NCBI GenBank assembly: GCA_030390025.1
Contig: CM059431.1
Location: forward strand, 117,554,001-117,618,000
DNA length: 64,000 nucleotides
From: Squalus acanthias
Taxonomy: Eukaryota
Direction: 5' to 3'
Part shown: one piece after another, positions 1-53,974 of the stretch
Layout: each line of letters starts with the position of its first letter
Position numbering within the stretch: position 1 is the stretch's first letter
Made by a program: the position numbers and the translations under genes
Notes under the pieces: generated by a model
The model's input: the letters and a program-made list of their open reading frames with translations, nothing else
Database searches by the model: none
Told to the model about the DNA's origin: nothing

Positions 1-95
1 TAAACCTGACAGCATTCTGCTGAAATAAAAGCTGTTTGAACGAAATTTTGTGTTTTCTCCTTATTAATCAAATCGCGATAATTGCGAATTCTACA
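1..95 (-). repeat. 3' LTR (first 95 nt only)
   Basis: Starts TGTAGAATT on the minus strand directly after a purine tract; 94/95 identical to 7674-7768. Confidence 0.95.
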
Positions 96-105
96 GTCCC
101 TCCTG
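96..105 (-). other. Polypurine tract
   Basis: Minus strand CAGGAGGGAC immediately precedes the TGTAG of the 3' LTR. Confidence 0.7.
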
Positions 106-339
106 TTGATGCGAATAACTCCGCTTATCGTATCAAAAAAATCTCAGTGGTGAGCAATCTTATCTCGATTTCACTCCGAATCCAGTAAATTAATCCCATA
201 AATTTTAACTTAACTAGGGTCTCTGTGTCATCCTCATTTCCCAAGAAAATCACATTTTATATCACCGTAGGCATCATTTGCCCTTAAACTTACACCACTT
301 GTTTTCCTTTCCGGCGTAACCAGGCCGATACCTCACGCA

Positions 340-513
340 TCACCTGTATATTTGTCTTTTATTCAAGGAAAGGAAAAACAAAACCCAAAACCAAACAATC
401 AACACCATCACCAAAAATAAACAAATCCCAACTCTTAAACATGTCGAGTTTCCAACGTATTTACAATGAGTACAAACTTCCGCGGCGCACGCGGCGAGCG
501 GGAGTGGCGCCAT
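340..513 (-). CDS. Candidate 57-aa single-pass membrane accessory protein
   Basis: AAAATGG start just after the env stop; Cys-rich N-terminus, hydrophobic VGICLFLVMVLIVWFWVLFFLSL, basic tail. T-rich composition could mimic this. Confidence 0.3.
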   Translation of the reverse strand: MAPLPLAACAAEVCTHCKYVGNSTCLRVGICLFLVMVLIVWFWVLFFLSLNKRQIYR

Positions 514-520
514 TTTCCGA

Positions 521-2317
521 TTACACGGTGCTCTCATCGTGCACGCGCACGTAACGTTCTCGCCACTCTCCCGTGTTTTCATGCTTGGTGAGGCGCTTGT
601 CTCTTTTACAATGTATGACCAATAGGTACACTACAATAAACACTTGACAGACGACTAAAATGTGGGAGGCTATTCTGATCCATGAAGGCACTTCAATATT
701 CGTGAACAGATTCCACCACGGTGGAACCACTATGTCCAAAATGTCTGTTCCTATCTCGACAGTTTTCTGCTCTAACGTATAAAAATGCTTCTGTGATACC
801 GCGACGGCTTTCAGAAGTTTGGTTAAATGCTCAGGGAGAGGGGGAATGAGGTATCCAAAATGCGCGACAAATTGCTGCAAGTCGGTGAAATTCTCTTTTA
901 CTGTGAGATGAACAGTGGATGGTTCAGGGATTGGGATAATTCGCTGTTGTGCTACTTGAACTTCAGCCCTGGGTTTAAAACAGAAACTGCTGTCACTCAC
1001 CGGACACCGGCTACGGTTTCCATGCTGGTAGTGTTGCGCTGCAGTGGTAACACAATATGTTCCACCCCCGATGTATGCTACCTGCGGAGGCACATGATCT
1101 TGTGCCATTGCCTCCATGGTGCAATTCATGGACTTGGCGCCAGCCGTTCTGAACCCGCACTGTGGTGTTAAAAAGGCATTCAAGTGCTGGGGGCACAGTA
1201 TTATGTGTGCTCCCCTGCCACGACAACCAGAGAGATCTGTACCTGTCATCGTTTGCTCCCAGCGGATGACGTAAGGTGGAACCGCTGCATAACGAATGTG
1301 GGCTCCCCCCTGAATGACACCAATGTTCTCTACCCGATATACCGGGGCGGGCTTTGCTGTGTTGCCCAAAACCGGCATGCGTAATACTATTCCCATAATA
1401 GTATGGTTTGAACGTCCGCAGTCCACGGGGACTGGGTAAGCTTCTGAAGCTAGCCTGAGCTGGCACGGACTTAATGCGTTCTGAAAAGGGTGAAGCGCCC
1501 GTAGGTGTTTGTTACTTATCCAGGACGGAACCAAACCTTGTTTTAAATCCTCCAAATTACTGCGGCCCTCGCCCAGTAACCACGCCCCGTAAAGCACGCA
1601 CACCTCGTTCTGCGCAGCTTGATCGGATGCATTCCGATCTTCCCTAATCAGGGCATTTACCGTACGCGCATGTTTCTCCAGCTCTGCTATGATTTCCTTT
1701 AAATGGAGAGTCATGGCTTGGTCCTCGTGTAGACCTGACCCTACCACTTTATTCTCATCTGTTAGAATGTCTTTTAACTGTGTTTTTAAACCATTAATCT
1801 GGGTCTGCAGCTCCACACTGTCTAGAGCGTTGACCACAGATGTCCCTGTGTTAAAAGCAGTGAACGCATCGTTCACCACACCCCTTCTTTGTCTCCCCAC
1901 CTGACCCAAAACTTCGTGTGGTGCGGTGTACAAGCTTGTCTTGTCAATTTCTGCAAAATCAAACTCGTAAAATTGTCTGAACATCTTGGTCAACAGGACC
2001 TGATACAACTGTTCCGTCTTTTTGGGGCACCACTCCGGTAACCGTACCTCAGTGAGATTTAAAATCACCGAGGCCACCGCGTAATGTACCCCCTGAAATA
2101 GTATCTGGTCTGTGGGGACCAGTACCAAACCGTTCCCGGGTCCCTTACTAGTTTTAGGGCACCCTTCTTCCTCAGTTAGAACCACCGGAATCGTGGGCGG
2201 GGCTTTGCGTGGGCGCGTAATGAGCTCAGTGGCATTTACTGGGATCGGGGAGAATGGGGCTCCGCACCCCCTGGTGCTCGCATCCCACCTCATCCCCTGT
2301 CCGTTAAATCCCCTCAT
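521..2317 (-). CDS. env: Envelope glycoprotein main part, class I fusion protein with F-like architecture
   Basis: Furin site RQRR (1883-1894), then a putative fusion peptide GVVNDAFTAFNTGTSVVNAL, heptad repeat, long Cys-rich domain, second helix, TM (IASHILVVCQVFIVVYLLVIHC) and short tail; several N-x-S/T sequons. Confidence 0.88.
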   Translation of the reverse strand: MRGFNGQGMRWDASTRGCGAPFSPIPVNATELITRPRKAPPTIPVVLTEEEGCPKTSKGPGNGLVLVPTDQILFQGVHYAVASVILNLTEVRLPEWCPKKTEQLYQVLLTKMFRQFYEFDFAEIDKTSLYTAPHEVLGQVGRQRRGVVNDAFTAFNTGTSVVNALDSVELQTQINGLKTQLKDILTDENKVVGSGLHEDQAMTLHLKEIIAELEKHARTVNALIREDRNASDQAAQNEVCVLYGAWLLGEGRSNLEDLKQGLVPSWISNKHLRALHPFQNALSPCQLRLASEAYPVPVDCGRSNHTIMGIVLRMPVLGNTAKPAPVYRVENIGVIQGGAHIRYAAVPPYVIRWEQTMTGTDLSGCRGRGAHIILCPQHLNAFLTPQCGFRTAGAKSMNCTMEAMAQDHVPPQVAYIGGGTYCVTTAAQHYQHGNRSRCPVSDSSFCFKPRAEVQVAQQRIIPIPEPSTVHLTVKENFTDLQQFVAHFGYLIPPLPEHLTKLLKAVAVSQKHFYTLEQKTVEIGTDILDIVVPPWWNLFTNIEVPSWIRIASHILVVCQVFIVVYLLVIHCKRDKRLTKHENTGEWRERYVRVHDESTV

Positions 2318-2798
2318 CCGGTTCCCACCATTTGTCCCAACAGACTTTCACTTGTCCGTCTGTCCCCGTAATTGTCCGATGGGTATTATTACCCAGTCGT
2401 TCCCACTCGACCGAAGAGTTTCTCATAGTTTTGCTCAGCTTTCGCAGCCACCACCATCGGCTCAATGGGACATCCCCACTACAGGTCAAACAAATCCGTT
2501 TGCCGACGGTGACGCTGATCCTGGGTGCGATGATCCGTACTTTGGGGCACATTAAAGAAGTCTCTTTGTAGGCGAACCCCGATGTGCTGGAATACTCCGT
2601 TGAGTTCGTTCCCAGCCATCCTGGCCACCTTCCCTTGTGGAAATAGGTGCTGGTCCCCTCTGCCTTCCGTCTTCCGGTCCCATCCACCGCGATGGGGGCC
2701 GTGTCCCCGGAACATCCAAACACCACGACATCCTTGGTGTGGCCTCGATAGGCCAATCCACATCCGATTGCCACGAGCAATACTAGAAGTCGTTCCAT
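2304..2798 (-). CDS. Env N-terminal part (signal peptide plus possible Ig-like domain), frameshifted from 521-2317
   Basis: Signal peptide MERLLVLLVAIGCGLA; ISVTVGKRICLTC...WWW...DEGI*. Removing one A from ATT TAA C gives DEGIY-GQGMRW, in frame with env. Putative acceptor TCACAG|G at 2812. Confidence 0.75.
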   Translation of the reverse strand: MERLLVLLVAIGCGLAYRGHTKDVVVFGCSGDTAPIAVDGTGRRKAEGTSTYFHKGRWPGWLGTNSTEYSSTSGFAYKETSLMCPKVRIIAPRISVTVGKRICLTCSGDVPLSRWWWLRKLSKTMRNSSVEWERLGNNTHRTITGTDGQVKVCWDKWWEPDEGI

Positions 2799-2983
2799 CC
2801 TTCCTTGGTTCCTGTGATCAGATAGAATGAGGTAGCCAGCCTCGCAAAAAGTCTCTGGCTGTTGTGAAGGGTGAGCGGGTCCCCTGACCTCGCCTCACGT
2901 AAACTTCAACGTTTGCTGAATAGACTTCCTCTAAACCTAGCCTTAAAACTCCCATCATTTTATCGTTATCTGTTAAAACACTA

Positions 2984-3058
2984 CAAACTTAACCTTGAAC
3001 TAATAAACTTAAAACTTAACCTTGAACTATAAACTTAAAACCTTAAACTAATAACTTT
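2984..3058. repeat. Imperfect AT-rich tandem repeat (AAACTTAACCTTGAACTA-like) between ORF2 and env
   Basis: Two near-identical units plus partial copies. Confidence 0.7.
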
Positions 3059-3088
3059 ACAGTGCCGCCCGTTCTCAGGGCGGCCCCT

Positions 3089-4270
3089 TTAAATTCTGAG
3101 AAGGCTGCTGCGAGCTCTTCCCGACGGTGGGAGGGCACTGACCCTTCCCTCTGATCTGCCGCAGCCTGTTGCTGCGCTGACCCTTTCCTCTGATCTGCCG
3201 CAGCCTGTTACTGCTGCGATGTGGCCTGTCTCTACCCGGGTTATCTTAACCTGAATTTTACGCCTTGGGGCAGTCTGGGGACATGACCACATCCTCCTGG
3301 GCTGGGGTTCTCTGCTTGACCTACGGGGAGTTGCTATGGGCGGGGGTTCCGTGACGGACGGACCGGGTTCCGAGACCTCCAACGGGATGACCTGGGGTTC
3401 CATCACAGTCGCCGGCTCCGCCTCCGCTGACTCCGCCTCCCTAACCTCGGGGCTGGCATTTCGTGGCTCCGCCCTGCTCGGCCCAGCAGGCGGCCCTTCA
3501 CTCGTGATCTCTGCCTCCTCTGAGGACTGGACGTTCAAAGCGGGCGGCCACACCTCTGGGAACCACATTGGTACTCTCTGTGCTCCTATAGCGGCTGGCC
3601 CTGCCTCCTCTAGCTCCTCCCTCCTGTTGTCGGGACCTGCAGCTTGTGTGTCCACCCCGTGTGGATCTCTACCTATCGGCCCCATTCCTCCCAGACCGTT
3701 CCTCAGGAACCACCCGTCATCATCACTATGCTCATCTGCACTATCCTCATCTGACCAGGGTACCCTGGGTTCTTCGTCATCTAACCCCCAACTCCAGAAA
3801 AACGCTGCATGATCGTCCGGGATGTCCCTTCCCCTGATGCAAGCTGCTACGCCTGCCTGTGTGCCTTGTGGTCCTACCTGGGGCTGTGTTTTCCCACTCG
3901 CAGGTCTGGCCCCTCCCTTAAGACAGGCCACCGCCCCTGCTTGTTTCTGTGAAATCTCACCTGCTGGAGGCTGCAGATTTCTATCCTGTTTTAAATACTC
4001 ATACTCCCTGCTCCTGGCTACCCTGTAGGCTGTTTTTATCTCTCTAAGCTGCTCTTCTAGCCTGAGCACGTCTAACTTTCCCATTGCTCGGGCGTTCTCC
4101 TCCCGCAGGGTCTGCTCTCTAAGCTGCCCTTCCAGCCCATCTATTTTCCCTATTAAGCGGGCGTTCTCCTCCCGCAAGGCCTGCTCTTTTAACCTGGCCT
4201 CCTCACCGCAGACCCCCTCCTGTGCGTGTCTTTTAAAAGGACACAGGTAGGCAGGCTGCGTGGGCTCTAG
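3089..4270 (-). CDS. ORF2: 393-codon in-frame readthrough extension of Gag; coiled coil, acidic/Trp-rich and Pro/Glu-rich; not Pol
   Basis: After the gag TGA (4273-4271) the frame continues CTA GAG CCC ACG... for 31 open codons into the listed 3089..4177 ORF, which starts at TTG, not ATG. Confidence 0.8.
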   Translation of the reverse strand, partial: LEPTQPAYLCPFKRHAQEGVCGEEARLKEQALREENARLIGKIDGLEGQLREQTLREENARAMGKLDVLRLEEQLREIKTAYRVARSREYEYLKQDRNLQPPAGEISQKQAGAVACLKGGARPASGKTQPQVGPQGTQAGVAACIRGRDIPDDHAAFFWSWGLDDEEPRVPWSDEDSADEHSDDDGWFLRNGLGGMGPIGRDPHGVDTQAAGPDNRREELEEAGPAAIGAQRVPMWFPEVWPPALNVQSSEEAEITSEGPPAGPSRAEPRNASPEVREAESAEAEPATVMEPQVIPLEVSEPGPSVTEPPPIATPRRSSREPQPRRMWSCPQTAPRRKIQVKITRVETGHIAAVTGCGRSEERVSAATGCGRSEGRVSALPPSGRARSSLLRI

Positions 4271-6082
4271 TCATTGGGTACTATTAGACGGTCCTGCGGC
4301 ACCTACGGGGCCGGTTGCGACCGCCACCTGTCCACGCGCATTCAAAACCATCTTGCGCATGGCTCCTAACACTGCTTCGAGGTCGTCGGGAGAGGTGGGT
4401 GCCTTTGCTTCCTTAGGCGGGACAGGCGCCTGGGCTCGGACCGCGGGATTTTTATCCTTGGAATCCTTCCAAGGGTTCCTGCAGTGCTTGCGCCAGTGCC
4501 CTGTCTTCCCACACCCGTAACAGGCATTACTTGCCTGTGGGGCGCGATTACCCTCCTGATGCCACTCTCTTTGAGCCGGGGCTGCGGGTCGTACCTCATG
4601 TACTCTTCCCTTAAAGGGACGTGTCGTCATACCCCTTATGTTACGGTAACCTAACGTGAGTCGATTCAAGACCGACTCTTCCGTAAGGTTGAGGTCATTG
4701 GGATCGAACCAGGCTTTTGCCTGCTCTCTAACGGCTGGTAAACTGTTGGCTATTATGCACCTAAGCCAATGAATTAAAGCGGCGCCTTCCACATCTTCGC
4801 GCTCGGGCGCACCTAGACAGCTGCGCTCATATACTGGCCACAGCCTGTCGGCAAAAACCTTCGGGGGTTCTCCCTCCATCTGCACTGTCTGTCCCACTCT
4901 AGCAAACGGACCTCCGTCGTTCGCTCCCACTACTTCTAGGACCTCATTTTTCAATTCCTCATAACTTTTGTTTCCCCTCTTGCTCTCGCCTGAGAGACAC
5001 TGAAGGACCGAGCTGTCTAATGAGAACAGCAGCATTTTTGCTGTCTCCCCATCATCGCAGCCGTTAATGGCTGCGGCTTGCTCAACTTCCCTGAAATGTA
5101 CGGAAGGGTCGTCTATCTCGGTCAGCTTCCTTACGTGGTTTATCATGGCTCTCAGCTGATGTGAACTGTGAGGCAACACCAGCTGTCCGAGGAGATCCCC
5201 CGGTTCTTCCCCACCGTTTCTGCTTGGGCCCCTTTTAATCCCCGTTACTGGATACAACGATCCCTTTTTTACTTCCTTTTCAACGGGCTCTTTTGTTTCT
5301 TCCGTTGCTTCCTCCCTAACCCAGGTTTCTGAATAGCTGGGTGGCGCGGAGGGCGCAGTGGCTACTACTTCTTCTGCTTTACTTGGTGGGGAATTTCTAA
5401 ATCTCTCATTTACTAGCGGCTGGCGCGCCGACGGATTGATAAGGCACACCATGCCGTTCGCATTATTCACGGCCTTTTTGAGGCTCTCTATCTCTTTTTG
5501 GCAGGCGCTATGGTCGGCTCCCTGAAACTTATCCTCAAGGGCCAACTTATACGCCGACCTAACCCCCATTAAGCTCTCTTCTTGAGTTCTTATCTGGGCA
5601 GCTTGGCGGTTACATCTTTCCTTCATCCTACTCTCGTTCAATTTTGCTTCAGTGATCTGGCACTCGAGATACTCTACCCTTGTTTTAAGGTAACTGGAGA
5701 CTTCCTGGCTTTCCTGGCGTAACTCATTTAAATTCTTAATGAGCACCTCCCCTCCAGAAACCTTCTCCTCCATTTCTCCCTCTAAATGGCTGATACGAGC
5801 TGTTAGCGCTGTAATGGTCTGGTTTGAAATCTGAACCTGCCTTTTGTAGCACATAAGCCAGACTGCTTTCTCAACTGCCTTTTTATGCTCCTTACTATCT
5901 GTCCACCTTTCAGCTGCCTCTAGTGGGCTCTTATCCGCTAACAATTCACTTATCCACTTTTTAGTTAGATTAACCTTTCCAAACACATAATCCGCTATCT
6001 TTTCCTGCATAACATTTCGTACCGTCATTCCAAAATCTAACACACTACCCTCTCGCTGCCAGTGTCCTGCCGCGGTCGCCAT
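4271..6082 (-). CDS. gag: Gag polyprotein, 603 aa
   Basis: Long N-terminal coiled coil; PSAPPSY (5333-5353); MHR-like QMEGEPPKVFADRL; CCHC knuckle CYGCGKTGHWRKHC (4481-4522); position directly after the PBS. Confidence 0.93.
   Translation of the reverse strand: MATAAGHWQREGSVLDFGMTVRNVMQEKIADYVFGKVNLTKKWISELLADKSPLEAAERWTDSKEHKKAVEKAVWLMCYKRQVQISNQTITALTARISHLEGEMEEKVSGGEVLIKNLNELRQESQEVSSYLKTRVEYLECQITEAKLNESRMKERCNRQAAQIRTQEESLMGVRSAYKLALEDKFQGADHSACQKEIESLKKAVNNANGMVCLINPSARQPLVNERFRNSPPSKAEEVVATAPSAPPSYSETWVREEATEETKEPVEKEVKKGSLYPVTGIKRGPSRNGGEEPGDLLGQLVLPHSSHQLRAMINHVRKLTEIDDPSVHFREVEQAAAINGCDDGETAKMLLFSLDSSVLQCLSGESKRGNKSYEELKNEVLEVVGANDGGPFARVGQTVQMEGEPPKVFADRLWPVYERSCLGAPEREDVEGAALIHWLRCIIANSLPAVREQAKAWFDPNDLNLTEESVLNRLTLGYRNIRGMTTRPFKGRVHEVRPAAPAQREWHQEGNRAPQASNACYGCGKTGHWRKHCRNPWKDSKDKNPAVRAQAPVPPKEAKAPTSPDDLEAVLGAMRKMVLNARGQVAVATGPVGAAGPSNSTQ
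6064..6081 (-). other. Primer-binding site for tRNA-Arg(UCG)
   Basis: Plus strand GTCCTGCCGCGGTCGCCA equals the 3' 18 nt (with CCA) of vertebrate tRNA-Arg-TCG as I recall it; lies 5 nt from the LTR end (...TTACA GAAAA TGGCG). Confidence 0.88.
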
Positions 6083-6086
6083 TTTC

Positions 6087-7768
6087 TGTAAGGGATTCTC
6101 CTGACCCTGCGTGTCTCGTAGCCTGTGAGATTCACGCGGCTCTGTGCAGCCTGTATGTCAGTGCGGGTCTAGGCCTGGTTGCCTGTTCTGGTCTCCAGCC
6201 GGTCTGGGAACACTAGACACACCTGTGAGTGGTTCGAATCACTCTCCCTTACGGTTCTAGACACTGGACTTAGATGCGAGAGCAGTAATGGAGATAAAAC
6301 TCATGTAGACTTGGTTTGAATGGTACGAAATGGAAAATCTTTATTGCATGATACTTAAAATTATGAAATACATGTCATACGCACAGATTAATGACAGTAC
6401 AATTCTGACAAACGGTTATAATCAATCTTAGGGAAACGAGGAACGAACGGCACAACGTAAATAGGGCACACATTACAAATATCCTTAATCTTTAAACCCT
6501 CCCCTATCAATATCTATCCTAAACTAGCTTCGTAGGATCTCGAGACTCATGCTCACCACTCGTAATAACTCGGAGAAATCCCGAATAGCTGATCGGATGT
6601 TTTTCACCGCAGCACCCACGTGTCGGTCAGGAGATCTCCCGGTCCCACTTGTTTACTGGCTTCTGCTGCTCGGGCTAGTAGGCTGGACCGTCTGCTGTAG
6701 TGAAGACCTCTGTTGGTTGACTTCACAGTTTAGTCGAGGAGCACCGTTGTCAATATCATTGATACGATGTGTTTGCACAGTCCAGTTATCATTGATGCAA
6801 TATGCTTTGTTAGAAGTTTAAAGAAGAAAACTTCCTGTCGAGAAGACTTGGCTGATCGACCTACAGGCGCGGTCGGGATTTACTGACCGTGGCGATGGAT
6901 ATGGTCTTCTTCTCTTCTCCTCTCATCTCATCTCATCTCATCTCATCTCGGGCCTTTGGTTCCGCTGCCAGTTACCAACATAGGTCTTCGTTACGCGACA
7001 CGAGGTAGATCCGAACGGATCAGAAAGTTCAACAGTCTTTTACACAGGAGCAGCCACGAGGTTACGAACCGACCGGATAAAACACAGGAGCAGCCACGAT
7101 GATAAGAGCAGCAAGCGAGCAAGAGCGGCAAGAGAGCGAATGGACGGTTTGGGGCCTGCAATTATAGTGCAAAAATCTTCCGTTTCCCGCCCAACTATAA
7201 TGTCCATTCTTTTGTTTAGGGTTTGGCGCCCAAATGTCTTGTATGGGTGATCTCCGTTCTTAATGGGTTTCGGGGCTACTCATGAATGTTTGAGTACCTG
7301 TTAATATTTCTCCCATTGTTAAATCGGTCGGTGTTCTCCCTGGAGGGGTTTGGGGCTTCCAAGTGTCCTGTATAACTACCTGCTAACGGCTCTCTCATCG
7401 TAGAGCCGTTGGGAGTTTACATATTAATGTCCTTTGGATGGGCCCTTAAGTACTTGGTACAATGGCTTTCCTTTGCACCTGGGAGACCGATTCCAGTATC
7501 TATGTTTATACTGCAAACCCATAATGTCCCGTGTATTATCTTCACTGTGCTGAATCGTTATCGATCTTGCAAAAAAATGTTTAATGGAACGCCATCTTGT
7601 CTGCCTGTTGAAAAGTCTAGAATGTTCTGTCACGAGGTGCGGCGGCCATTTTACAGGCTGCTTGTGTCCAATTTAAACCTGACAGCATTCTGCTGAAATA
7701 AAAGCTGTTTGAACGAAATTTTGTGTTTTCTCCTTATTAATCAAATCGCGATAATTGCAAATTCTACA
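6087..7768 (-). repeat. 5' LTR, 1682 bp (TGTAG...TTACA)
   Basis: Right boundary from the match to 1-95; left boundary inferred from the CA end next to the PBS; AATAAA at 6345-6340. Confidence 0.85.
7161..7229 (-). promoter_or_regulatory. Putative LTR core promoter: TATAAT, ETS (CGGAAG) and two E2F-type sites
   Basis: TATAAT on the minus strand at 7166-7161; CTTCCG 7177-7182; TTTCCCGC 7183-7190; TTTGGCGC 7222-7229. Confidence 0.45.
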
Positions 7769-8429
7769 GAACCAAAGCATTTTATTACAAATATTCCTAA
7801 TATTTACAGGCTATTATATCCACATCCACAAGTGAAGATAAGATGACTTCTGCTGCTTAGTTCATTGCTGGTCCATCTCAGTTACAGCATTCTTCAGATA
7901 GCCTTGAATCAGTGTTCGTTAAGGTGAGAGAAGTTAATGCTGAGGAATGAATTTCAGGGATCCAGCATCAAATAATCCCAAAACAGGGACAATATGATTA
8001 AAACAGTGGAAAGCTCCCTCGACTCCGCTCCAAAAATATACATCAGCCCCAGCCTCGGAAGAGCAACCCCTACTGTCCCATATGACATTTTCCCAGTTCT
8101 CACATCAATCAGCCTGTAACATTTTGGAGTGAGATTGCCAATCAGTACCATAAGGTCATTTGGGCTATGGGCTCATCCTCACCACCCTTACGTGGGAGAG
8201 CAAATTGAACAATTGGGCAGAAAATCCAGAGGGCTGCAAATCGGGTGTGCTGACCTGTCTGGCCGATTGGCTGATTTGCCCTGCTGTTGACTGAGTCTCC
8301 GTGCCGGGAGTGCTAAGTTACAAAGCTACCCCTAAATCACGAGTTGAGTTTGGCAGCAGCGTGTTATCAGCAAAAAGAAATTTGTAGTTTTATTTCTGTT
8401 GCAGGTATTTCTGATAGAATAACAGTGTA

Positions 8430-13118: not shown

Positions 13119-14720
13119 ATGGGTGGCACCATGGCTGCCTTAGGTTGGACCTCGGGCGAGGAGCAAGATGACCATCAGCAGCAGCAACAGCTTGCTGTGG
13201 AAAGACCTTTTTTTAAAAATTTGTTCATGGGATGTGGGCATCGCTGGCAAGGCCAGCATTTATTGCCCATCCCTAATTGCCCTTGAGAACGTGATGGTGA
13301 GCCGCCTTTATGAACCGCTGCAGTCCGTGTGGTGAAGGTACTCCCCACAGTTCTGTTAGGGAGGGAGTTCCAGGTGGTCAGCAGAGAGGGGAGCAGCAGC
13401 AGAGAGGGCAGCAGCAGAGAGGGCAGCGGCAGAGAGAGGTTGAGGTCGCAGGAAGTGCTACTCGCGTAACAGGGTGTATAGGCAGAGGCTCAGTTTCCTT
13501 GACCTCTTGGAAGAGCAGTGATTCGGGAGGCTGAGGTTGTCATTGCAGATGGCGGCAGACATCTGCAGCCTCCTGGAAGAAGACCTGCTCCCTGCTGGAC
13601 CTGGTGGCCACGTATTACCAGTGGCTGTGAAAGTGACCACCGCCCTGAAGATTTTTGCCACTGGATCCTTCCAGGGCGCTACCGGAAACATATCTAGGAG
13701 CTTCCAGTCAGCGGCCCACAAATGCATAAGGCAGGTCACTGATGGGTTGTTTGCTAGGGCCAGCAATTATGTTAACTTTGCCTGTTATGATGGCAGTCAG
13801 AAGGAGCAGGCGCTTGGGTTTGAGTCTCTGGCTGGCTTCCCACAGGTACAGGGTGTCATTGCCTGCACATACATGGCAATCCACCCACCACCAGATCAAC
13901 CAGGAGTATTCGTGAACCGCAAGGGCTTCCAGTCCATCATTGTGCAGCTGGTGTGCAACCACATGAAAAGGTTTATGCAGGTGTGCACCAGCTTCCCAGG
14001 GAGCTGCCATGATGTTTTCATCCTGTGGGAGTCCAAGCGCCCTGACGTCTTTGGACCTGAAAGCACACTTAAGGGGTGGCTGCTAGGAGACAAGGGATAC
14101 CCACTTCAAATTTGGCTGATGACACCTGTGAGGAACCGTACCAATGAAGCCCAAGAGCAGTACAACGAAAGCCATATGACAACCAGATGTGACATTGAGC
14201 AAGCGATTCGCATACTCAAGATACACTTCAGGTGCCTGGACAGATCAGGCCGTGCCCTTCAGTGCTCACTAGCCAGAATGATCGTGGTGTGCTGCGCTCT
14301 GCACAACATTGTGCAGCAGCTAGGATTGGAGCTGCAGGAGGTACAAGGGACTAAGCACACTTGGGGCACAATCTTGCCAGCCCTGGGGAGGCGGGTTTAG
14401 AGGCGGGACTGTTGGGAAAATGGCAGAATCTGGGGGCGCTGACGTTCTCTGTAACCGGCTTCCCCTTAATTGGCCTGCTAAGCCAGCTGGGCAGGCTTAA
14501 CAAGGTCAATCAAGGGAAAATAGCGTGGGTTGGCCAGAAGTCAATGGAGGTGGGACTAAAACCCGACAAGTCCCGCCTCCAAAAGCTCCCCATTGGCAAA
14601 ATCCAGCCCATTGTCTGCGGCTGAATCCGAGGAGGAGGATGAGGAAGAGGGCGACCCCAGTGCAGCACCAGCCGCTCACAGGATGCTAGGGATTCCCTTA
14701 TAGCTTTAAGGTTCAGTTAG
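13119..14720 (+). pseudogene. Harbinger DDE transposase pseudogene
   Basis: [32 protein letters not shown] motifs; interrupted by a LINE tail (about 13205-13372) and a MITE. Confidence 0.9.
14364..14609. mobile_element. Short Harbinger-type MITE (internally deleted relative of 35408-36208)
   Basis: Both halves match the two ends of 35408-36208; ends AAAATCCAGCCC. Confidence 0.8.
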
Positions 14721-23821: not shown

Positions 23822-26800
23822 GGTGCCGATAAATTTGGTCCCGTAGTGCCCAGTTTTTTGGTGCTGATTCAAGTCCAAAATGGCGTCTGAGGAGCACGCA
23901 CACACTTCTGGTGCAGGCCGCATCGGACGCCATTTTGGGTAAGTCGTTAGCGTGGGCGCTAGTTTCGTGCGGCGGAAGTATGCAGAGTAGGCAGATCGTG
24001 ATGTCAATCAGCGTGTAACGTTGATTTTATGCCAGCGCTGCCATTTTCGACCTCAACGCTGGAGCTAACGCCCTCTCTTAACCTCGCACAGCTGAGCATG
24101 CATTCAGCAGCAGGAAGGACTCCCTACCTCCGCTAGTTAAAGGGATTATCACCTGCTTTCAGGACAGTTACTGATTGATTTGTACTGGCTCTTGGTGAGT
24201 TTGTAGAGGTGTTTCTTGGTGTGTTAACTTATTTGAAGTTGCTGAAGCGTCCAGCGAGTGGTGCGGCAGGTTACTTCAAAGGGTCCGCTCAGACCAGTTG
24301 CTCCCAGACATGGGTGCAGTAGTTTGTATCCCCCTTGGCCTACAGCATGACAGGGAGAATGAGCACAGGTGACACCGAAGAGGACAAGTTGCTAGAAGAG
24401 GGAGGAGGAGGAGGGGGAGAAGGGCTCTTAGCAGGAGGCCATATCCACCCAGGGTCTTTAGGGAGCAATTCTCCTGCCTCAACCTCAGCGAGGAACAGTG
24501 TTTGTGACATCTCCATTTCACTAAGGAGGTGCTCACTGAAATCTGCCACCTGTTGCAGGAGAACTGCAGCCTCAGAGCCAGACGAGGACAGCATTGCCAG
24601 TGGCTGTCAAGGTGAGCGTGGCCATTAACTTATATCTGTCGGGCTCCTTCCAGGCTGGAGCAGGCGATATTTCCAACTTCTCCCAGTTCACTGTGCACTG
24701 TTGCTTAAGGGAGGTCACTGAGGTTCTGTATGTAAAGAGAGGTGAATACATTTTATTCTCTTAGACAGAGAGAAGCAGGCGGAGAGAGAACGCAGCTCAC
24801 CAGGATAGCAGGCTTCCCATGGTGCCGGGTGCCATTGTTTGGACACCCGTCACTTTGCGGACGCTACATGTGAACTTGGAGATGTACCACAACCGGAAGG
24901 GATTCCACTCCCTCAATATCCAGCTGGTGTGCGACCATACTCAGCACATCATGCAGGTCAGTGCTCAGTATCCTGGCATCAGTCATAATGCCTTCATTCT
25001 GCGGCAGTCCACTGTACTTTCCACATTTGAGCCACCACGACAAACCAGAGGGTGGCTATTGGGCCACAAGGGCTATCCGCTGACCATCTGGCTCATGACT
25101 CCGGAGTGCAACCCAAGCTCACGTGAGCAGCATGCATATAACGAAAGCCATGCTGGCACACGGAATCTGATAGAGCAGACGATCGGCTTGCTTAAACAGC
25201 GCTTCCGCTGCTTGGACTGCTCTGGAGGAGCCCTGCAGTACTCGCCAGAGCGCGCCTCAAGGTTCATTGTGGTCTGCTCCACAGCCTCGCCATCATGAGG
25301 GCACAGCCCCTTCCACCACGTATACGGCGAAGAACTGAGAAGGAAGAGGAAGGGAGGAGGCAACCGACACAGCCCTTTCTGGCCGGGCTGTCTGTGATCG
25401 ACTCATTCGACTGCAGTACCAGTGAATGCAACCCCAATTCCCCATTCACCAACAGTCCCACATCCCGCCTCCTTCAGTTACTGACCATCGCAGCGTCCTC
25501 TTGGCCACAATGCTAAAATAAAAGCCACCACTAAACAAACATTCCAAACCAAATTTTTTAATCAAACCATACAATATTACATTCCAAAGTCAACTCATCA
25601 CCCTTGTGCATTCCCTTAGTGCCTGCCTTCCATGTGCCTTTGCCTGTCCTAGTGCTCCTGCACAGTGCTGCCCCAATCCCTGCAGCATGGCTGGTGGAAG
25701 GCTGCTGACTTTCAGTGGAGGAGACTGCAGATGGCCTTGGAGGACGACCTCGAGCATCTCTGGACCTAGAAGGCCCGGCTTCAGGCTGCACCACCTCAGC
25801 ATGAGCGGCAGCAGTCTGGGCTGGCTGGTTGAAAGGCAAAAGCAAGGGCACTGGCGGAGAGGCAGAGGTGGGAGAACGAATGCAGTCATCCTGAGAGAGG
25901 ACAGAAGGTTCGCGCTCCACGGAGCCACTGCCACTCCACTGGGACGGTGCCTCAGCATTCCTAGTAATCTGATGGAGGACAGATTGCTGGACTGCTGTGA
26001 CGCCCTGCAAGCCCCTTTCAACACGAACCACAGGCATGATGGCAACAGTCTGTGCTTACACGGTGACAAGCTGAGCTTGCATAACTTCAGTCTGAGCTTT
26101 CACTGCAGCACTCAGACATTGGGTGGCTTCTGCTTGTGTTGCAATGGAAGCTGAGACATCGGCCATCAGATGCTGCATCATGGTTCGGTCCACAAGTGCG
26201 CTAATGGATTTGCCCATCACTTCAACACTTGAAAGGATAGGTTCCAAGCTCTGCACAAAGCCCTGTGAAAGGTTGGTGCTGGACTCCTCCATGCTCCTTG
26301 GCATTGCATTCAGGCTTTCTGGCAGGCCTGTCAATGCAGCAAGCATCTCATTGTGCATACCCATCAGCATTCTTCTTAGGCTGCCCCATCAAAATCCTCA
26401 TCTGAGTCCTGTGCAGCAGGTGAGCTGGCACCTGCGCCACCCTTTCCCCCTGCTTGGCTGCAGCCTACTTGTGCCCAGTGACTCACCACGTGCAGATCCC
26501 GCCTCTATGCTACCCTTTAAAGTAAGTGCAGTGTCGTATCTGAGCTGGTGGCTGCGAGTGTGAGATCGAGCGATGGTGCTGTGTCTTCAGCATCACTGCC
26601 TTCTTCCTCTTGCAGATCCTGCTCCTCCACCACTGCCTGGCTAGGTCGGAGTTCTTGGCTACCTGAAAGGAGACAGACACAATGGTAGGGTTGTGGTGAG
26701 GGAGTGCAGTGGGGTGGGGGGAAGCAAGAGGTGCATGCTTACACCATCTGCAGCTTCTAAATCAAAAGAGATTGTGGGATGTGGGGAAGTGGGATGTGAG

Positions 26801-47927: not shown

Positions 47928-50712
47928 TCAAGCTATCACACTCCCTATCACTCTGGTGTGCTCCATGTGCTTATCCAATAACCGCTTGAAAGTTCCTAAA
48001 GTGTCCGACTCCACTATCACAGCAGGCAGTCCATTCCACACCCCAACCACTCTCTGAGTAAAGAATCTACCTCGGACATCCCTTCTATATCTCCCCTCAT
48101 GCACCTTATAGTTATGCCCCCTTGTAACAGCTGCCTCTACCCGAGGAAATAGTCTCTGAACATCCACTCTATCTATCCCCCTCATCATCTTATAAACCTC
48201 TATTAAGTCGCCTCTCATCCTCCTCCGCTCTAAAGAGAAAAGCCCCAACTCCCTCAATCTTTCCTCAAAAGACCTCTCCCCCCAAACCAGGCAGCATCCT
48301 GGTAAATCTCCTTTGCACTCTTTCCAATGCTTCCACGTCCTTCCTATAGTGAGGTGACCAGAACTGCACACAATATTCCAAATGTGGTCTCACCAAGGTC
48401 CTGTACAGTTGCAGCATAACCTCACGGTTCTTAAACTCAAACCCTCTGTTAATAAACGCCAACACACCATAGGCCTTCTTTACTGCTCTATCCACTTGAG
48501 TGGCAACCTTCAGAGATCTGTGGATATGAACCCCCAGATCCCTCTGCTCCTCCACGTTCCTCAGAACCCTGCCGTTGACCCTGTAATCCTTATTCACATT
48601 TGCCCTACCAAAATGAATCACCTCGCACTTATCAGGGTTAAATTCCATCTGCCATTTTTCGGCCCAGCTCTGCATCCTATCAATGTCTCTTTGCAGCCTA
48701 CAACTGCCCTCCACCTCATCCACTACTCCACCAATCTTGGTGTCATCAGCAAATTTACTGATCCACCCTTCAGTCCCCTCCTCCAAGTCATTGATAAAAA
48801 TCACAAACAGCAGAGGACCCAGCACCGACCCCTGTGGCACACCGCTGGTAACTGGTCTCCAGTCCGAAAATGTTCCATCCACCACCACCCTCTGCCTTCT
48901 ATGAGATAGCCAGTTACTTATCCAATCGGCCAAATTTCCCTCTATCCCACAACTCCTTACTTTCTTCATGAGACGACCATGGGGAACCTTATCAAACGCC
49001 TTACTAAAATCCATGTATACGACATCAACTGCTCTACCTTCATCTACACACTTAGTTACCTCCTCAAAGAATTCAATCAAATTTGTTAGGCAAGACTTAC
49101 CCTTCACGAATCCGTGTTGACTATCCCTGATTAAGTTGCCCCTTTCCAAATGGTCATAAATCCTATCCCTCAGGACCTTTTCCATTATCTTACCAACCAC
49201 CGAAGTAAGACTAACCGGCCTATAATTACCAGGGTTATTCCTATTTCCTTTCTTGAAGAGAGGAACAACATTCGCCACTCTCCAGTCCTCTGGCACCATC
49301 CCCGTGGACAGTGAGGACCCAAAGATCAAAGCCAGAGGCTCTGCAATCTCCTCCCTTGCCTCCCAAAGAATCCTAGGATATATCCCATCTGGCCCAGGGG
49401 ACTTATCGACCCTCAGGTTCTTTAAAATTGCTAAAACATCTTCCCTCAGAACATCTACCACCTCCAGCCTATCCACCTTTATCACACTCTCATCCTCAAG
49501 AACATGGCCCCTCTCCTCGGTGAACACTGACGAAAAGTATTCATTCATCACCTCTCCTATCTCTTCTGACTCCATGCACAAGTTCCCACTACTGTCCTTG
49601 ACCGGCCCTACCCTCACCCTGGTCATTCTTTTATTTCTCACATAAGAGTAAAAAGCCTTGGGGTTTTTCTTGATCCGACCCGCCAAGGACTTCTCATGCC
49701 CCCTCCTAGCTCACCTAAGCTCTTTTTTTAGCTCATTCCTTGCTACCTTGTACCCCTCAATCGACCCAACTGAACCTTGTTTTCTCATCCTTACATACGC
49801 TTCCTTTTTCCTCTTGACTAGACATTCAACCTCTTTTGTGAACCATGGTTCTCTCACTCGGCCATTTCCTCCCTGCCTGACAGGGACATACCCATCAAGG
49901 ACACGCAGTAATTGCTCCATGAAAAAGCTCCACTTTTCGTTTGTGCCTTTCCCTGATAGTTTCTGTTCCCATCTTATACTCCCTAATTCTTGCCTAATCG
50001 CATCATAATTACCCCTCCCCCAATTATAAACCATGCCCTGCCGTATGGCCCTATCCCTCTCCATTGCAATAGTGAAAGTTACCGAATTGTGGTCACTATC
50101 TCCAAAGTGCTCTCCCACATACAAATCAAACACTTGGCCCGTTTCATTACCCAGTACCAAATCCAACATGGCCCCACCTCTTGTCGACCTATCCACATAT
50201 TGTGTCAGGAAACCCTCCTGCACACACTGTGCAAAAACTATCCCATCCGAACTGTTTGACCTATAAAGGTTCCAATCAATATTTGGAAAGTTGAAGTCAC
50301 CCATGACAACTACTCTGTGACCTCCACACCTATTCATAATCTGCTTTGCAATTTCTTCCTCCACATCTTTATTACTATTTGGGGGCCTGTAGAAAACTCC
50401 TAACAACGTGACCGCTCCTTTCCTATTTCTAACTTCAGCCCATATTACCTCAGACGGCAGATCCCCCTCGAACTGCCTTTCTGCCGCTGTTAAACTATCC
50501 TTGATTAACAATGCTACTCCTCCACCTTTCTTACCAACTTCCCTACTCTTACTGAAACATCTATACCCCAGAACTTCCAACAACCATTCCTGTCCCTGTT
50601 CTAACCATGTCTCCGTAATGGCCACCACATCGTAGTCCCAAGTACCAATCCACGCTCCAAGTTCTCCTACCTTATTCCGGATGCTCCTTGCATTGAAGTA
50701 GACACACTTCAA
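47928..50712 (-). pseudogene. CR1 ORF2 (APE endonuclease and RT) with one stop (49711) and one frameshift (about 48290)
   Basis: ITETW, GDFN, SDH; DFSKAFD, PQGSVLGP, KFADD. Confidence 0.93.
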
Positions 50713-50825
50713 GCCATCTTCCTGTCTGCCGGTACATTCCTGCGACCTTGATACCCTCCTCAGTACCTCCCTACACTCACCACTGGCTCGTGGACTACAG
50801 CCCTTTTTCCCATCCCCCTGACAAA

Positions 50826-51752
50826 TTAGTTTAAACCCCCCCGAAGAGCCGTAGCAAATTTCCCTCCCAGGTTATTGGTGCCCCTCTGGTTCAGGTGCAA
50901 ACCGTCCTGTTTGTACAGGTCCCACCTTCCCCAGAATGTGCTCCAATTATCCACATAACTGAAACCCTCCCCCCTACACCATCCCTGCAGCCACGTGTTT
51001 ATCTGCACTCTCTCCCTGTTCCTCAACTCGCTAGCACGTGGCACCGGCAACAAACCAGAAATTACAACATGGTTTGTACTGGCTCTCAGCTTCCAACCTA
51101 GCTCCCTGAATTCCTGTTTTAAATCCCCGTCCCTTCTCCTACCTATGTCGTTGGTACCGATGTGTACCACGACTTGTGATTGTTCCCCTTCCCCTTTGAG
51201 GATTCTGAAAACACGGTCCGAGACATCACGGACCCTGGCACCCGGGAGGCAACATACCATCCGTGAGTCTCTTTTGCTGCCACAGAACCTCCTATCTGTC
51301 CCTCTGACTAATGAGTCCCCAATAACTATTGCTCTCCTGCTCTCCCCCCTTCCCTTCTGAGCCACAGGGACCGACCCAGCGCCGGAGATCCGGTCACCGT
51401 GGCTTACCACTGGTAAGTCGTCCCCCTCAACAGTATTCAAAGCGGTATACCTGTTACTGAGGGGAACGGCCACAGAGGATCCCTGCACTGACTGCTTCCT
51501 CCTAGCCCCTCTCACCGTCACCCATCTATCTTCATGCTTTGGAGTAATTACATCCCTGAAGCTTCTATCTATGACCTCCTCTGCCTCCCGAATGATCCGA
51601 AGTTCATCCAGCTCCAGCTCCAGTTCCCTAACACGGTTTTCGAGGAGCTGGAGATGGGTGCACTTCCCACAGGTGTAATCAGCAGGGCCACCTACGGCGT
51701 CCCTCACCTCAAACATTCTGCAGGAGGAACATTTCACTGCCTCCCCTGCCAT
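50826..51752 (-). CDS. CR1 ORF1p (zinc finger, coiled coil, SGNH esterase), intact
   Basis: CSSC...CGKC, GDSLVRG, HIGTND, DGLHLN. Confidence 0.92.
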   Translation of the reverse strand: MAGEAVKCSSCRMFEVRDAVGGPADYTCGKCTHLQLLENRVRELELELDELRIIREAEEVIDRSFRDVITPKHEDRWVTVRGARRKQSVQGSSVAVPLSNRYTALNTVEGDDLPVVSHGDRISGAGSVPVAQKGRGESRRAIVIGDSLVRGTDRRFCGSKRDSRMVCCLPGARVRDVSDRVFRILKGEGEQSQVVVHIGTNDIGRRRDGDLKQEFRELGWKLRASTNHVVISGLLPVPRASELRNRERVQINTWLQGWCRGEGFSYVDNWSTFWGRWDLYKQDGLHLNQRGTNNLGGKFATALRGGLN

Positions 51753-53974
51753 CCCCTCCAGCTAACTTGCAGATTAAACTAGAACAAAAAAGAGCTTACC
51801 TGATAGTCACTCACCTCCTTTAGGTTAGAGGAGGAGGAAGGGTGGGGGATACTACAAGTGTAGTGTCTCGGGTTTAGGAACCGCCCATCTTATATACAGG
51901 TAAAAAAATTAATCACCTACCCAGCAACCACTGCATCCCGCACTTTAAAAGCCTCTGTGGGCCTACCTGGTCGCCGCCGCCTCTTAAGTCCTCCGCCTCG
52001 CCGCAGCCGCTCCACCCAGGTCCGCCGCCTCTGTGGGCCTACCTGGTCGCCGCCGCCTCTTAAGATGCTGCCTGTCAATGGTGAGAGAGTTCTTCCAATG
52101 AGGTGAGACTGGATGGAGACATTGCTGGAAAGACTTGCAGCCTGCAGAATCTGTGCTGGAAATGGACTGAGCAACAGCTTCTGCCTGAGGAAAGTGATCA
52201 TCTGTCAGGTGGGAGCTTTTACTGAACATTTCATGCTGTCAAGTAATCAGCTGGAGCAATGGCTATGGAACTCCTGCCTCTGGTTGGCAGGTGTGGTTCC
52301 CGAGCTGCGTGAATGCCGTAGCCATGCAGGGAAATTTAAAAAGTAAGTGATAAAAGGCTCTTACGTGCCTCTAATCTACCTGATAACCATCTCAATTGGG
52401 TCCCCCGCCGCTGCCAGTCGGTTCAGCTATGCGATGACAGACGCGCCTGGGGGAAAGGAGCATGGGAGCAAGATGACAGCCCGACCCGCAGTCAAAAATA
52501 ACAACTTTCCCAACCAACCCGCCACCGATCGCGCCCGCTACCACCCCGGAAAATTCCGGCCTTGTTTTCTCTCGTTGGACTGATCCTTTGGAGCTTTGAA
52601 AAATATACTTAAGAATTTTCCTAGTTTCAATTTGCTGCCCTGGTCCCAACCAGCAGTTTGAGTGAGTCAGCATAGTCAGGAGCAGCATACCACTTCTAGA
52701 CATTCTGGAAGAAGTACAACAGATGGCTGGAATTGAGTCTGCAGCAATAAAAATGCCGTACGTGTGCACTCCAGTGTGTTCAGCCAGGCACATGCAGACA
52801 GTCTTATTAGCTCATGATTGGATCATGAAACTGCCCCAGAATTCCACTCTCACAGCTCCTGGCATTTGGATTGCTCTGTTAACTTAAACTGAGATTCAGT
52901 TCTGTCGTGTAACCCATGGTGGAGCAGGTAAGGTCTTTGGCATAAAAACAGGAAATGCTGGAAATACTCAGCATTTTCACTTACCTCAGGCGGAAGCTGT
53001 TGCTCAATCCATTTCCAGCACAGATTCTGCAGGCTGCAAGTCTTTCCAGCAAAGTTTCCATCCAGTCTCACCTCATTGGAAGAACTCTCTCACCATTGAC
53101 AGGCAGCATCTGTGGAAAGGTTTTTGGCATCTGGTCTCAATAAACTTCTAACTTAATTCAAATAAGTCCAAGTAATTGTAAATCATTCTAATTTTAATTT
53201 CTAAAACCATATTGAAATTTTAACTAAAGACCATCAGCATACTATATTTTCCCAAACTATCTTTTGTTTTCCTGCTCCATCTCTTATATTTGTCTGATTA
53301 CACTTCTGGGAAGCACCTTATTCAATGGTAAAGGTGTTGTATAAATATTTTGTTGCTCTTGCTCTAACGCTTCTTTCCCCACACTATTTCATGTTTTCCT
53401 GTTGTATCTCATGGTTTCCTGCTCTATCGCATGTTTTCCCACCATATCTCTTGGTCTTTCCACGATCTCCCTTGTCTTTCACTGACCTGAACTATCCTTT
53501 AGTCTCTTTTGACAAATTTTCTGTTCTTAGAGTGAATCTATTCGCCAATCCCCCTTTCCAAGTTTTACAGTGTCCTTGAATCCTTTATAGTTTAACAACT
53601 CCCTCCTGAGATGATGGTTACACCCAGCACTAATTTGTACCTCAGTAGAGCAGAAATAAAAAAGAACTTGTGCCTTTCACATCTTCAGGATGTCTCAAAA
53701 GTGATACAACCAATGAAGTACTTTCAAAATATATACACTGTTGTAATGTGGGCAGATATAATAGCACAAAGCAAAGTCACTCACACAGCAATGAGATATG
53801 TAACCAAATAATCTGTTTAGTGGTGTTGGTTGAAGGATAAATGTTGGGTGAGACATTGGGAGAACTCCCATGTTCTTATTCAAATAGGACCATGTTTTAT
53901 TTTATATCCATCTGAGAAAAAAATGGGCTCAGTTTAACATCTCATGGATGAATGGCTCCTGTAACAGTGTCATA

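What the first reader, a model, noticed from the sequence alone, without database searches (positions are those of the whole stretch)
521..1894. Env fusion subunit built like paramyxo/pneumovirus F1, not a retroviral TM
Seen: about 450 aa lie after the furin site, with HR1, a long Cys-rich region, HR2 and TM, and no CX6CC or immunosuppressive motif. Known: gamma-type retroviral TM subunits are much shorter, and this layout is typical of F proteins and reported for lokiretrovirus Env. Inference: an F-type fusogen on an LTR element.
Basis: partly seen in the sequence, partly recalled or inferred. Interest (0 to 1): 0.75.

Follow-up and report, generated by a model that had tools for sequence, protein, structure and literature searches.

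The report
F-type envelope on shark-type endogenous retrovirus
The envelope gene of a young retrovirus-like element, probably in a cartilaginous fish, is predicted to fold like the fusion protein of measles- and RSV-type viruses, a fold already known from foamy viruses and lokiretroviruses, here with an extra antibody-like head and broken in this copy.

Summary
Observation confirmed. After RQRR (1883-1894, minus strand) lie 453 aa: long helices, ten ectodomain cysteines, HR2, TM; no CX6CC or ISD motif. An AlphaFold2 model matches paramyxo/pneumovirus F over about 410 residues (Foldseek E 1.5e-10; Z up to 12.4). 'Not a retroviral TM' holds only against gamma/beta types: foamy Env ties with prefusion F (Z 8.2 vs 9.1) and is the best profile-HMM hit, and epsilonretrovirus Env, baculovirus F and lispivirus G also match. 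So this is the shared F-type (class Ib) fold, not a paramyxovirus-specific one. The env sits in a pol-less LTR element; this copy is broken near 2305. Homologues occur in sharks, a skate, frogs and coelacanth. Lokiretrovirus membership is unsupported: that study found none in 6 of 6 cartilaginous fish, and pol scraps beside a whale-shark homologue look snakehead-retrovirus-like (by eye). New here is a probable N-terminal Ig-like head (weak support). The scan noted what appears to be the same family earlier, on other copies in this genome. New variant of a known kind; interest 0.5.

The parts
1..95 (-). Start of the 3' LTR (runs off the window)
   Evidence: 95 of 96 nt identical to 7674-7769; begins TG
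96..107 (-). Short purine-rich tract before the 3' LTR (PPT candidate)
   Evidence: sequence; role inferred
521..610 (-). Env cytoplasmic tail (29 aa) and stop
611..682 (-). Transmembrane helix
   Evidence: hydropathy 2.55; helix in model
737..841 (-). HR2 / HRB helix
   Evidence: model helix 446-478; aligned range extends to 480-485 against postfusion F
920..1501 (-). Cys-rich beta core (domains I-III of the F fold)
   Evidence: pLDDT mostly 80-96; matches to F and foamy Env; conserved cysteines
1538..1816 (-). HR1 / HRA long helix
   Evidence: model helices, N-terminal half low confidence
1817..1882 (-). Fusion-peptide candidate (Gly/Ala/Phe/Thr-rich, mildly hydrophobic)
   Evidence: position after furin site; hydropathy up to 0.75; role inferred
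1883..1894 (-). Furin motif RQRR
   Evidence: an R-x-[RK]-R motif also in 7 of 10 homologues checked at or near this place (P0047 has it only elsewhere; P0034, P0036 lack it)
1895..2161 (-). F2-like segment (about 90 aa: long strand pair plus HRC-like helix), no inserted receptor-binding domain
   Evidence: pLDDT 80-93; aligned from residue 10-12 to F2 of paramyxo/pneumovirus F
2162..2304 (-). Pro/Thr-rich linker and flank
2304..2307 (-). Break in env: frameshifting deletion relative to relatives; upstream frame ends in a stop
   Evidence: tblastn of skate and unnamed homologues switches frame here; contigs of 3 of 4 runs have loose ends at 2305/2306
2307..2549 (-). Ig-like (V/I-set) module, cut short at its end in this copy
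   Evidence: Pfam Ig_3 E 0.088 here, 0.0027 in P0069; 8 of 8 PDB profile hits are CRTAM or CD8-alpha, E 0.15-0.31; low-confidence model, Z 5.2-6.2
2550..2750 (-). Conserved N-terminal segment of unknown fold
   Evidence: conserved in 4 of 4 close sequences; pLDDT about 25
2751..2798 (-). Env start codon and signal-peptide-like segment
   Evidence: inferred from hydrophobicity
2811..2830 (-). Splice-acceptor candidate 13 nt before the env ATG
   Evidence: sequence; inferred, not tested
3089..4270 (-). 393-codon ORF in frame after the gag stop, in the place of pol; tandem coiled coil then low-complexity; no PR/RT/RH/IN match
   Evidence: weak likeness to the Gag coiled coil (hhalign E 0.01, probability 4%)
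4271..6082 (-). gag, 603 aa, open: N-terminal coiled coil, Ty3/retrotransposon-like capsid, one CCHC knuckle; ends UGA-CUA-G before a stem-loop
   Evidence: (on the skate homologue)
6064..6081 (-). Primer-binding site candidate, overlapping the gag ATG
6087..7768 (-). 5' LTR, about 1.68 kb, TG...CA
   Evidence: start by repeat match; end inferred from CA before the PBS

Best explanation
521-1894 is the fusion subunit of a class I, F-type ('class Ib') envelope glycoprotein of a young, pol-less, multi-copy endogenous retrovirus, probably of a cartilaginous fish. Proposed working of the unbroken family member: spliced env mRNA and signal peptide (inferred); trimer; furin cleavage at RQRR giving an N-subunit (Ig-like head, linker, F2-like segment) and the 453-aa F1-like subunit, probably held by a disulfide between the conserved F2 and HR1 cysteines (inferred from conservation); the head binds a cell-surface partner (inferred); HR1 extends, the fusion peptide inserts, HR2 packs back into a six-helix bundle (inferred from the fold). 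Shown by computation: layout, fold class, LTR context, absence of pol, the break. This copy should give only a truncated N-terminal piece and no fusogen. The lineage is most likely snakehead-retrovirus-like (about 0.55), on by-eye evidence only.
For: Foldseek PDB: 38 of 38 rows shown are paramyxo/pneumovirus F, best E 1.5e-10. Exhaustive alignment to 48,161 chains: top 13 rows are all F proteins or foamy Env over residues about 10-420; first unrelated row Z 6.7 on one helix; the lentiviral TM EIAV gp45 scores Z 5.2 on 57 helical residues, like unrelated coiled coils. Postfusion Nipah F Z 11.9, rmsd 5.2 A, 292 aligned; hPIV3 F Z 12.4, rmsd 14.6 A, 355 aligned. Sequence-only support: a 35-sequence profile finds foamy Env first (E 0.0024, 0.0058); language-model features of homologue P0016 give Baculo_F and Fusion_gly clusters at 0.92. 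44 homologues at E<=0.001, named ones from sharks, a skate, two frogs and coelacanth. Lineage: whale-shark gene model P0026 joins an RT end, RNase H (Pfam E 3.9e-5) and a piece of this Env; two short motifs resemble the SnRV rows more than the Loki rows of the alignments in PMC7947760's supplement.
Against: No Pfam PF00523 match for the window protein or 28 homologues; one weak Baculo_F match. Global TM-scores are only 0.22-0.41 and identity 9-16%; model pTM 0.52, 123 of 550 residues under pLDDT 50. The smaller 8-sequence profile found no viral protein in the PDB. The fusion peptide is weakly hydrophobic. The Ig model is poor (mean pLDDT 35.6) and its top three matches are phage beta-sandwiches. 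P0026 is a degraded, predicted gene and may join pieces of different elements. No function was tested.
Confidence: 0.85

Rival explanations
1. The element is a lokiretrovirus (first record in cartilaginous fish) and the Env an ordinary Loki Env.
For: Same Env type per PMC7947760. By eye the F2 start and the four-cysteine core line up with Loki Env. Gag with N-terminal coiled coil and about 600 aa recalls zebrafish Bik-1.
Against: That study found Loki in 0 of 6 cartilaginous-fish genomes, two of which hold homologues of this Env. 17 of 18 Loki Envs I saw go from signal peptide straight into F2 (one is truncated; 23 are listed), whereas this family has about 190 extra residues. The two Loki Envs read in full lack the three later cysteines. 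P0026 RT/RH motifs look SnRV-like.
Confidence: 0.15
2. The element is foamy-like and the Env a spumaviral Env.
For: Foamy Env is the best sequence-profile hit in the PDB and ties with prefusion F in structure (Z 8.2, rmsd 6.0 A, 273 aligned).
Against: No receptor-binding domain inserted before the furin site (F2-like part about 90 aa); short signal peptide; Gag has a CCHC knuckle, absent in foamy Gag per PMC5210030; ORF after gag is in frame behind a readthrough-type stop.
Confidence: 0.07
3. An epsilon-like (class I) retrovirus carrying the F-like Env type of walleye retroviruses.
For: WEHV-1 and WDSV Env models match (E 3.5e-9, 6.6e-7); epsilon-related fish and frog viruses use UGA readthrough (PMC13517186); epsilon-like ERVs occur in elephant shark.
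Against: Walleye Envs are 1,159-1,317 aa against about 680-750 for the long homologues here; capsid features point to Ty3-like clusters; P0026 motifs differ from the WDSV and Xen-1 rows.
Confidence: 0.12
4. A recent capture of an F gene from a negative-strand RNA virus (paramyxovirus, lispivirus, fish filovirus) by an LTR element.
For: Best predicted-structure hits are a lispivirus and a fish filovirus glycoprotein (E 1.2e-14, 2.8e-12); best solved hits are paramyxovirus F.
Against: Identity to all of these is 9-16%, while homologues in sharks, frogs and coelacanth are 18-31% identical and deeply branched; the tree has no viral outgroup, so it cannot name a donor.
Confidence: 0.06

Closest known systems
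Paramyxovirus and pneumovirus fusion protein F (PDB 1ZTM, 3MAW, 8DMJ, 6APB, 7SEM)
   Same: Short F2, furin site, N-terminal fusion peptide, HR1, nested beta domains, HR2, TM; best solved-structure matches.
   Different: 9-16% identity, no PF00523 match; encoded as env of an LTR element; carries its own N-terminal module, whereas these viruses use a separate attachment protein (PMC11468914).
Lokiretrovirus Env (Wang and Han, PMC7947760)
   Same: F-like Env on a vertebrate LTR element; similar F2 start and four-cysteine core by eye.
   Different: No N-terminal module and fewer cysteines in Loki Env; Loki not found in six cartilaginous-fish genomes; pol kinship not shown.
Foamy-virus Env (PDB 8RM0, 8RM1; PMC11468914)
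   Same: A retroviral TM subunit with the same fold; best sequence-profile hit.
   Different: Foamy RBD is inserted before the furin site and there is an N-terminal membrane anchor; here the extra module is N-terminal and Ig-like.
Errantivirus and baculovirus F-type Env (bioRxiv 10.1101/2023.10.26.564294); walleye epsilonretrovirus Env; lispivirus G
   Same: Same predicted fold group.
   Different: Invertebrate hosts or much longer proteins; none appeared by name among the homologues I looked up.
Snakehead retrovirus (SnRV)-like ERVs
   Same: Reported in elephant shark and coelacanth; gag-pol readthrough; RT/RH motif likeness in P0026.
   Different: SnRV stop is UAG, here UGA; this copy has no pol; SnRV Env was not compared and is not named among the 50 rows (three rows are unnamed).

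Membership tests
F-type (class Ib) fusion protein | Furin site followed by fusion peptide, HR1, HR2, TM | tested here: met
   fusion peptide only mildly hydrophobic
F-type (class Ib) fusion protein | Nested domain I-III core shared between F2 and F1 | tested here: met
   predicted model aligned over residues 10-420 to F and foamy Env
F-type (class Ib) fusion protein | Trimer and six-helix bundle; membrane fusion activity | not testable with these tools
   the one complex job gave no verdict (see Tried and rejected); no experiment
Paramyxo/pneumovirus F (Pfam PF00523) | Sequence match to PF00523 | tested here: not met
   no match for the window protein or 28 homologues
Gamma-type retroviral TM | CX6CC motif after an immunosuppressive domain (PMC3758190) | tested here: not met
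   1 of 10 homologues has a CX6CC pattern somewhere (P0047), place not examined
Lokiretrovirus | RT in the Loki clade; tether plus RNase H | not testable with these tools
   this copy has no pol and no genome is held; only a by-eye look at P0026
Lokiretrovirus | F-like Env with R-x-K-R site | tested here: met
   F-like fold met; site here is RQRR
Lokiretrovirus | Signal peptide directly followed by F2 (pattern in the published consensus Envs, not an authors' criterion) | tested here: not met
   17 of 18 Loki Envs seen vs about 190 extra residues here
Spumaretrovirinae | RBD inserted before the SU/TM site | tested here: not met
Spumaretrovirinae | Gag without Cys-His box | tested here: not met
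   CCHC present (homologue E 3.4e-6)
SnRV-like ERV | RT in the SnRV clade | tested here: inconclusive
   two short motifs of P0026 resemble SnRV by eye; no tree
Immunoglobulin superfamily (N-terminal module) | Beta sandwich with B-strand Cys, C-strand Trp, F-strand D-x-G-x-Y-x-C | tested here: inconclusive
   motifs present in relatives, last one cut in this copy; all scores below curated or reliable thresholds

The most novel reading that the evidence does not exclude
This family is a further retroviral lineage (SnRV-like) with an F-type Env, joining foamy, Loki and epsilon viruses, so the F fold is the ancestral retroviral envelope and the short gamma/beta TM is derived; and the family equips the F core with exchangeable N-terminal receptor-binding heads: a host-derived Ig domain in sharks and frogs, a different Cys-rich head in Mustelus (P0015), none in coelacanth (P0046).
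Probability: 0.3. Interest if true: 0.75.

Novelty: new variant of a known kind. Interest (0 to 1): 0.5.

Why it matters
The origin of retroviral env is open (four scenarios in PMC7947760). An F-type Env family across cartilaginous fish, frogs and coelacanth, if tied to a non-Loki, non-foamy pol, would favour an F-type ancestor and make the question testable by paired RT and Env trees. The N-terminal module would be another way of giving an F core its own receptor binding, beside the foamy insertion and the coronavirus S1. The bare finding, an F-like Env on a vertebrate LTR element, is already in print for Loki and foamy viruses.

Tried and rejected
No genome is held, so no pol-bearing copy, copy count or target-site duplication could be read. 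Single-sequence PDB and Pfam searches gave nothing significant. Two metagenome scans found no relatives (456 and 527 pattern matches, none confirmed); the viral-contig scan did not run. HR1 x3 with HR2 x3 complex prediction: no verdict, score 0.00, no evidence either way. The N-terminal model against predicted viral structures gave no usable match. No gamma- or beta-type TM is named among the rows shown; absence from a list does not exclude it. No RNA holder is listed as such; two runs laid were RNA only by guess, so expression is untested. Sequence look-ups in earlier notes found nothing, so identity with the family in those notes rests on their descriptions. Motif strings searched in the Loki supplement gave no hit. 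The tree (17 of about 50 sequences, chosen for length, chimeric models left out) has no outgroup and three long branches. A hairpin at about 6225-6250 first looked like a PBS; rejected for the site at 6064-6081. Literature: no paper held all of 'endogenous retrovirus, envelope, immunoglobulin domain, shark, LTR' or 'snakehead retrovirus, envelope, fusion, structure prediction'; one search listed one paper, whose epsilonretrovirus SU modelling failed. The library lacks most subscription papers; Calcraft 2024 was seen only as a citation; bioRxiv supplements could not be seen, and 10.1101/2023.10.26.564294 says its vertebrate ERV analysis will be reported elsewhere.

Full report
Observation. The minus-strand frame 524-1894 is open and gives 457 residues that start with RQRR, so 453 follow the furin motif. 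It has ten ectodomain cysteines, no CX6CC or CX6C, no match to an ISD-like pattern written from recall, five N-glycosylation sequons and one transmembrane segment. Gamma-type TMs are defined by CX6CC after the ISD (passages of PMC3758190). The stretch after the furin site is only mildly hydrophobic (best window 0.75).

Context. The gene is the env of an LTR element on the minus strand. Window 1-96 matches 7674-7769 at 95 of 96 bases, which suggests a young insertion, though only 96 bases can be compared. Gag is open for 603 codons, about 51% and 43% identical to a skate and an unnamed homologue, with an N-terminal coiled coil, one CCHC knuckle and a capsid region whose features group with Ty3/retrotransposon Gag (run on the skate protein). 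Gag ends in UGA-CUA-G followed by a stem-loop (z -2.8, 1 of 200 shuffles as stable), the type II readthrough context of alphaviruses (passages of PMC13517186). The in-frame ORF behind it has no PR, RT, RH or IN match, so this copy is non-autonomous. All 30 bins of 100-6300 are covered in 4 of 4 runs laid, with thousands of variant contigs in one, consistent with many related copies; that is not a copy number. Closest named proteins are from a sawshark and a skate (60-77% identity), so the host is probably a cartilaginous fish.

The env is broken in this copy. It starts at 2798 with a signal-peptide-like segment; homologues align to one frame down to 2307 and to another from 2305. Contigs in 3 of 4 runs leave the window sequence at 2305/2306, so other copies differ here and the break is not family-wide. 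This copy should make no fusion subunit.

Fold. A model of 524-2173 from a 35-sequence alignment has mean pLDDT 72, with the beta core and the F2-like segment mostly at 80-96 and 123 of 550 residues under 50. Foldseek against the PDB returns paramyxo- and pneumovirus F in 38 of 38 rows shown, best E 1.5e-10, TM-scores 0.22-0.39. Alignment to 48,161 representative chains puts F proteins and foamy Env in the top 13 rows, spanning residues about 10-420; the first unrelated row is a single helix at Z 6.7, and the lentiviral TM gp45 scores 5.2 on 57 helical residues. Re-alignment of 996 Foldseek candidates gives Z 12.4 (hPIV3, rmsd 14.6 A, 355 aligned) and 11.9 (postfusion Nipah, rmsd 5.2 A, 292 aligned). 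The match therefore covers the beta domains and is not a coiled-coil artefact. Seven core cysteines are kept in 85-96% of the homologues covering each column, and one F2 and one HR1 cysteine in 10 of 12 and 21 of 23.

The fold is not paramyxovirus-specific. Among predicted viral structures the order is a lispivirus glycoprotein (1.2e-14), a fish filovirus glycoprotein (2.8e-12), further lispi/arli-type proteins, a baculovirus F (2.3e-11), respirovirus F (4.9e-11), and walleye epsilonretrovirus Envs (3.5e-9, 6.6e-7). Foamy prefusion Env (Z 8.2, rmsd 6.0 A, 273 aligned) is tied with metapneumovirus prefusion F (Z 9.1, rmsd 5.8 A, 281 aligned), and the sequence profile finds foamy Env first (E 0.0024 and 0.0058); a smaller profile found nothing. 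PMC11468914 (abstract, sections 6 and 9) shows that foamy Env has the F fold. PMC7947760 (parts 1-3 of 4) reports F-like Env in lokiretroviruses, and 10.1101/2023.10.26.564294 (abstract, first part of section 6, passages) in many invertebrate errantiviruses. 'Not a retroviral TM' thus holds only for gamma and beta types. Neither the window protein nor 28 homologues match Pfam PF00523.

Family. HMMER found 44 relatives at E<=0.001. Of ten proteins looked up, six were named: bamboo shark, smooth-hound, whale shark, two frogs (one in a 16-member cluster) and coelacanth. Long ones are 18-31% identical to the window protein. A 17-row tree separates a mostly shark group holding the window from a group with bamboo shark, frogs and coelacanth, without an outgroup.

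N-terminal head. Before the F2-like segment the close relatives have about 190 extra residues, including a stretch with Ig-type motifs. Support is consistent but weak: Pfam Ig_3 E 0.0027 in one relative and 0.088 in the window, V-set E 0.045 in a distant one, 8 of 8 PDB profile hits to CRTAM or CD8-alpha at E 0.15-0.31, and a poor model (mean pLDDT 35.6) whose residues 78-168 match mostly Ig domains at Z 5.2-5.7 behind three phage proteins at 5.8-6.2. UniRef names the bamboo-shark homologue 'Ig-like domain-containing'. I put it at about 0.7. By eye, the smooth-hound protein has a different Cys-rich head, and the coelacanth protein and P0036 go from signal peptide straight into F2, so the head appears modular. 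A receptor-binding role is inferred.

Lineage. RT cannot be tested on this copy. The Loki supplement (parts 1, 49, 66, 76 of 82 and searched passages) records Loki in 0 of 6 cartilaginous-fish genomes, including two that hold this Env family. Loki Envs share the F2 start and four-cysteine core by eye, but 17 of the 18 I saw have no N-terminal module. A whale-shark gene model joins an RT end, RNase H and a piece of this Env; its K-x-N-P-K-K and C-T-x-Y-L-A-x-W motifs resemble the SnRV rows more than the Loki, foamy or WDSV rows. SnRV-like ERVs are reported in elephant shark (part 1 of 2 of PMC4422223) and coelacanth (passages of PMC4977317). This is a lead only: two motifs, one degraded gene model. 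Foamy membership fails on the missing RBD insertion and the CCHC knuckle (passages of PMC5210030). Also seen, as passages or first parts, without changing the reading: 10.1101/2024.03.25.586437, 10.1101/2021.11.23.469661 (parts 1-2 of 6), PMC12583693, PMC12440569, PMC9040795, 10.1101/2021.11.05.467493 (91).

Earlier notes. The scan described what appears to be the same family on other copies in this genome: F-type Env, Ig-like head, pol-less layout. These are not independent support; I had reached the F and Ig readings before looking.

Verdict. A real F-type fusion subunit on an LTR retroelement. The kind is known; the family, its probable Ig-like head and its possible SnRV-like pol were not found in the papers searched. 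New variant of a known kind, interest 0.5.

Noticed in passing
window 4130-4273 (minus): Gag stop is UGA-CUA-G followed by a stem-loop (z -2.8): an alphavirus-type readthrough context on a retroelement; the retroviral UGA contexts listed in PMC13517186 differ.
   Followed up: partly
   Followed up: partly
window 3089-4270 (minus): Open 393-codon ORF in the pol position with an internal repeat (4040-4130 vs 4115-4200, 76%) and weak likeness to the Gag coiled coil.
   Followed up: partly
window about 6225-6250 (minus): Small hairpin with a palindromic TTCGAA loop, inside the inferred U5; seen by eye, could be a dimerisation-type element.
   Followed up: no
window 48265-51761 (minus): LINE with an esterase-type (GDSL) ORF1, endonuclease and RT, interrupted by a stop (Pfam).
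   Followed up: partly
window 13522-14400, 24765-25298, also about 39170 and 42600: Decayed DDE_Tnp_4 (Harbinger-type) transposase copies.
   Followed up: partly
window 52063-53111: 135-nt inverted arms, 96% complementary, 779 nt apart: MITE-like.
   Followed up: no
proteins P0008, P0014, P0039: Public gene models fuse pieces of this Env to Niban-like, cadherin-like and F-box host genes; probably annotation chimaeras, possibly exonisation.
   Followed up: no
protein P0047 (Mantella aurantiaca): 16-member cluster, 13 of the 15 listed members 677 aa long, on several chromosomes-scale contigs: a recently active frog branch of the family.
   Followed up: no
ranks 2, 19, 30: A fish filovirus glycoprotein and two walleye epsilonretrovirus Envs fall in the F-type fold group by predicted structure.
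   Followed up: no
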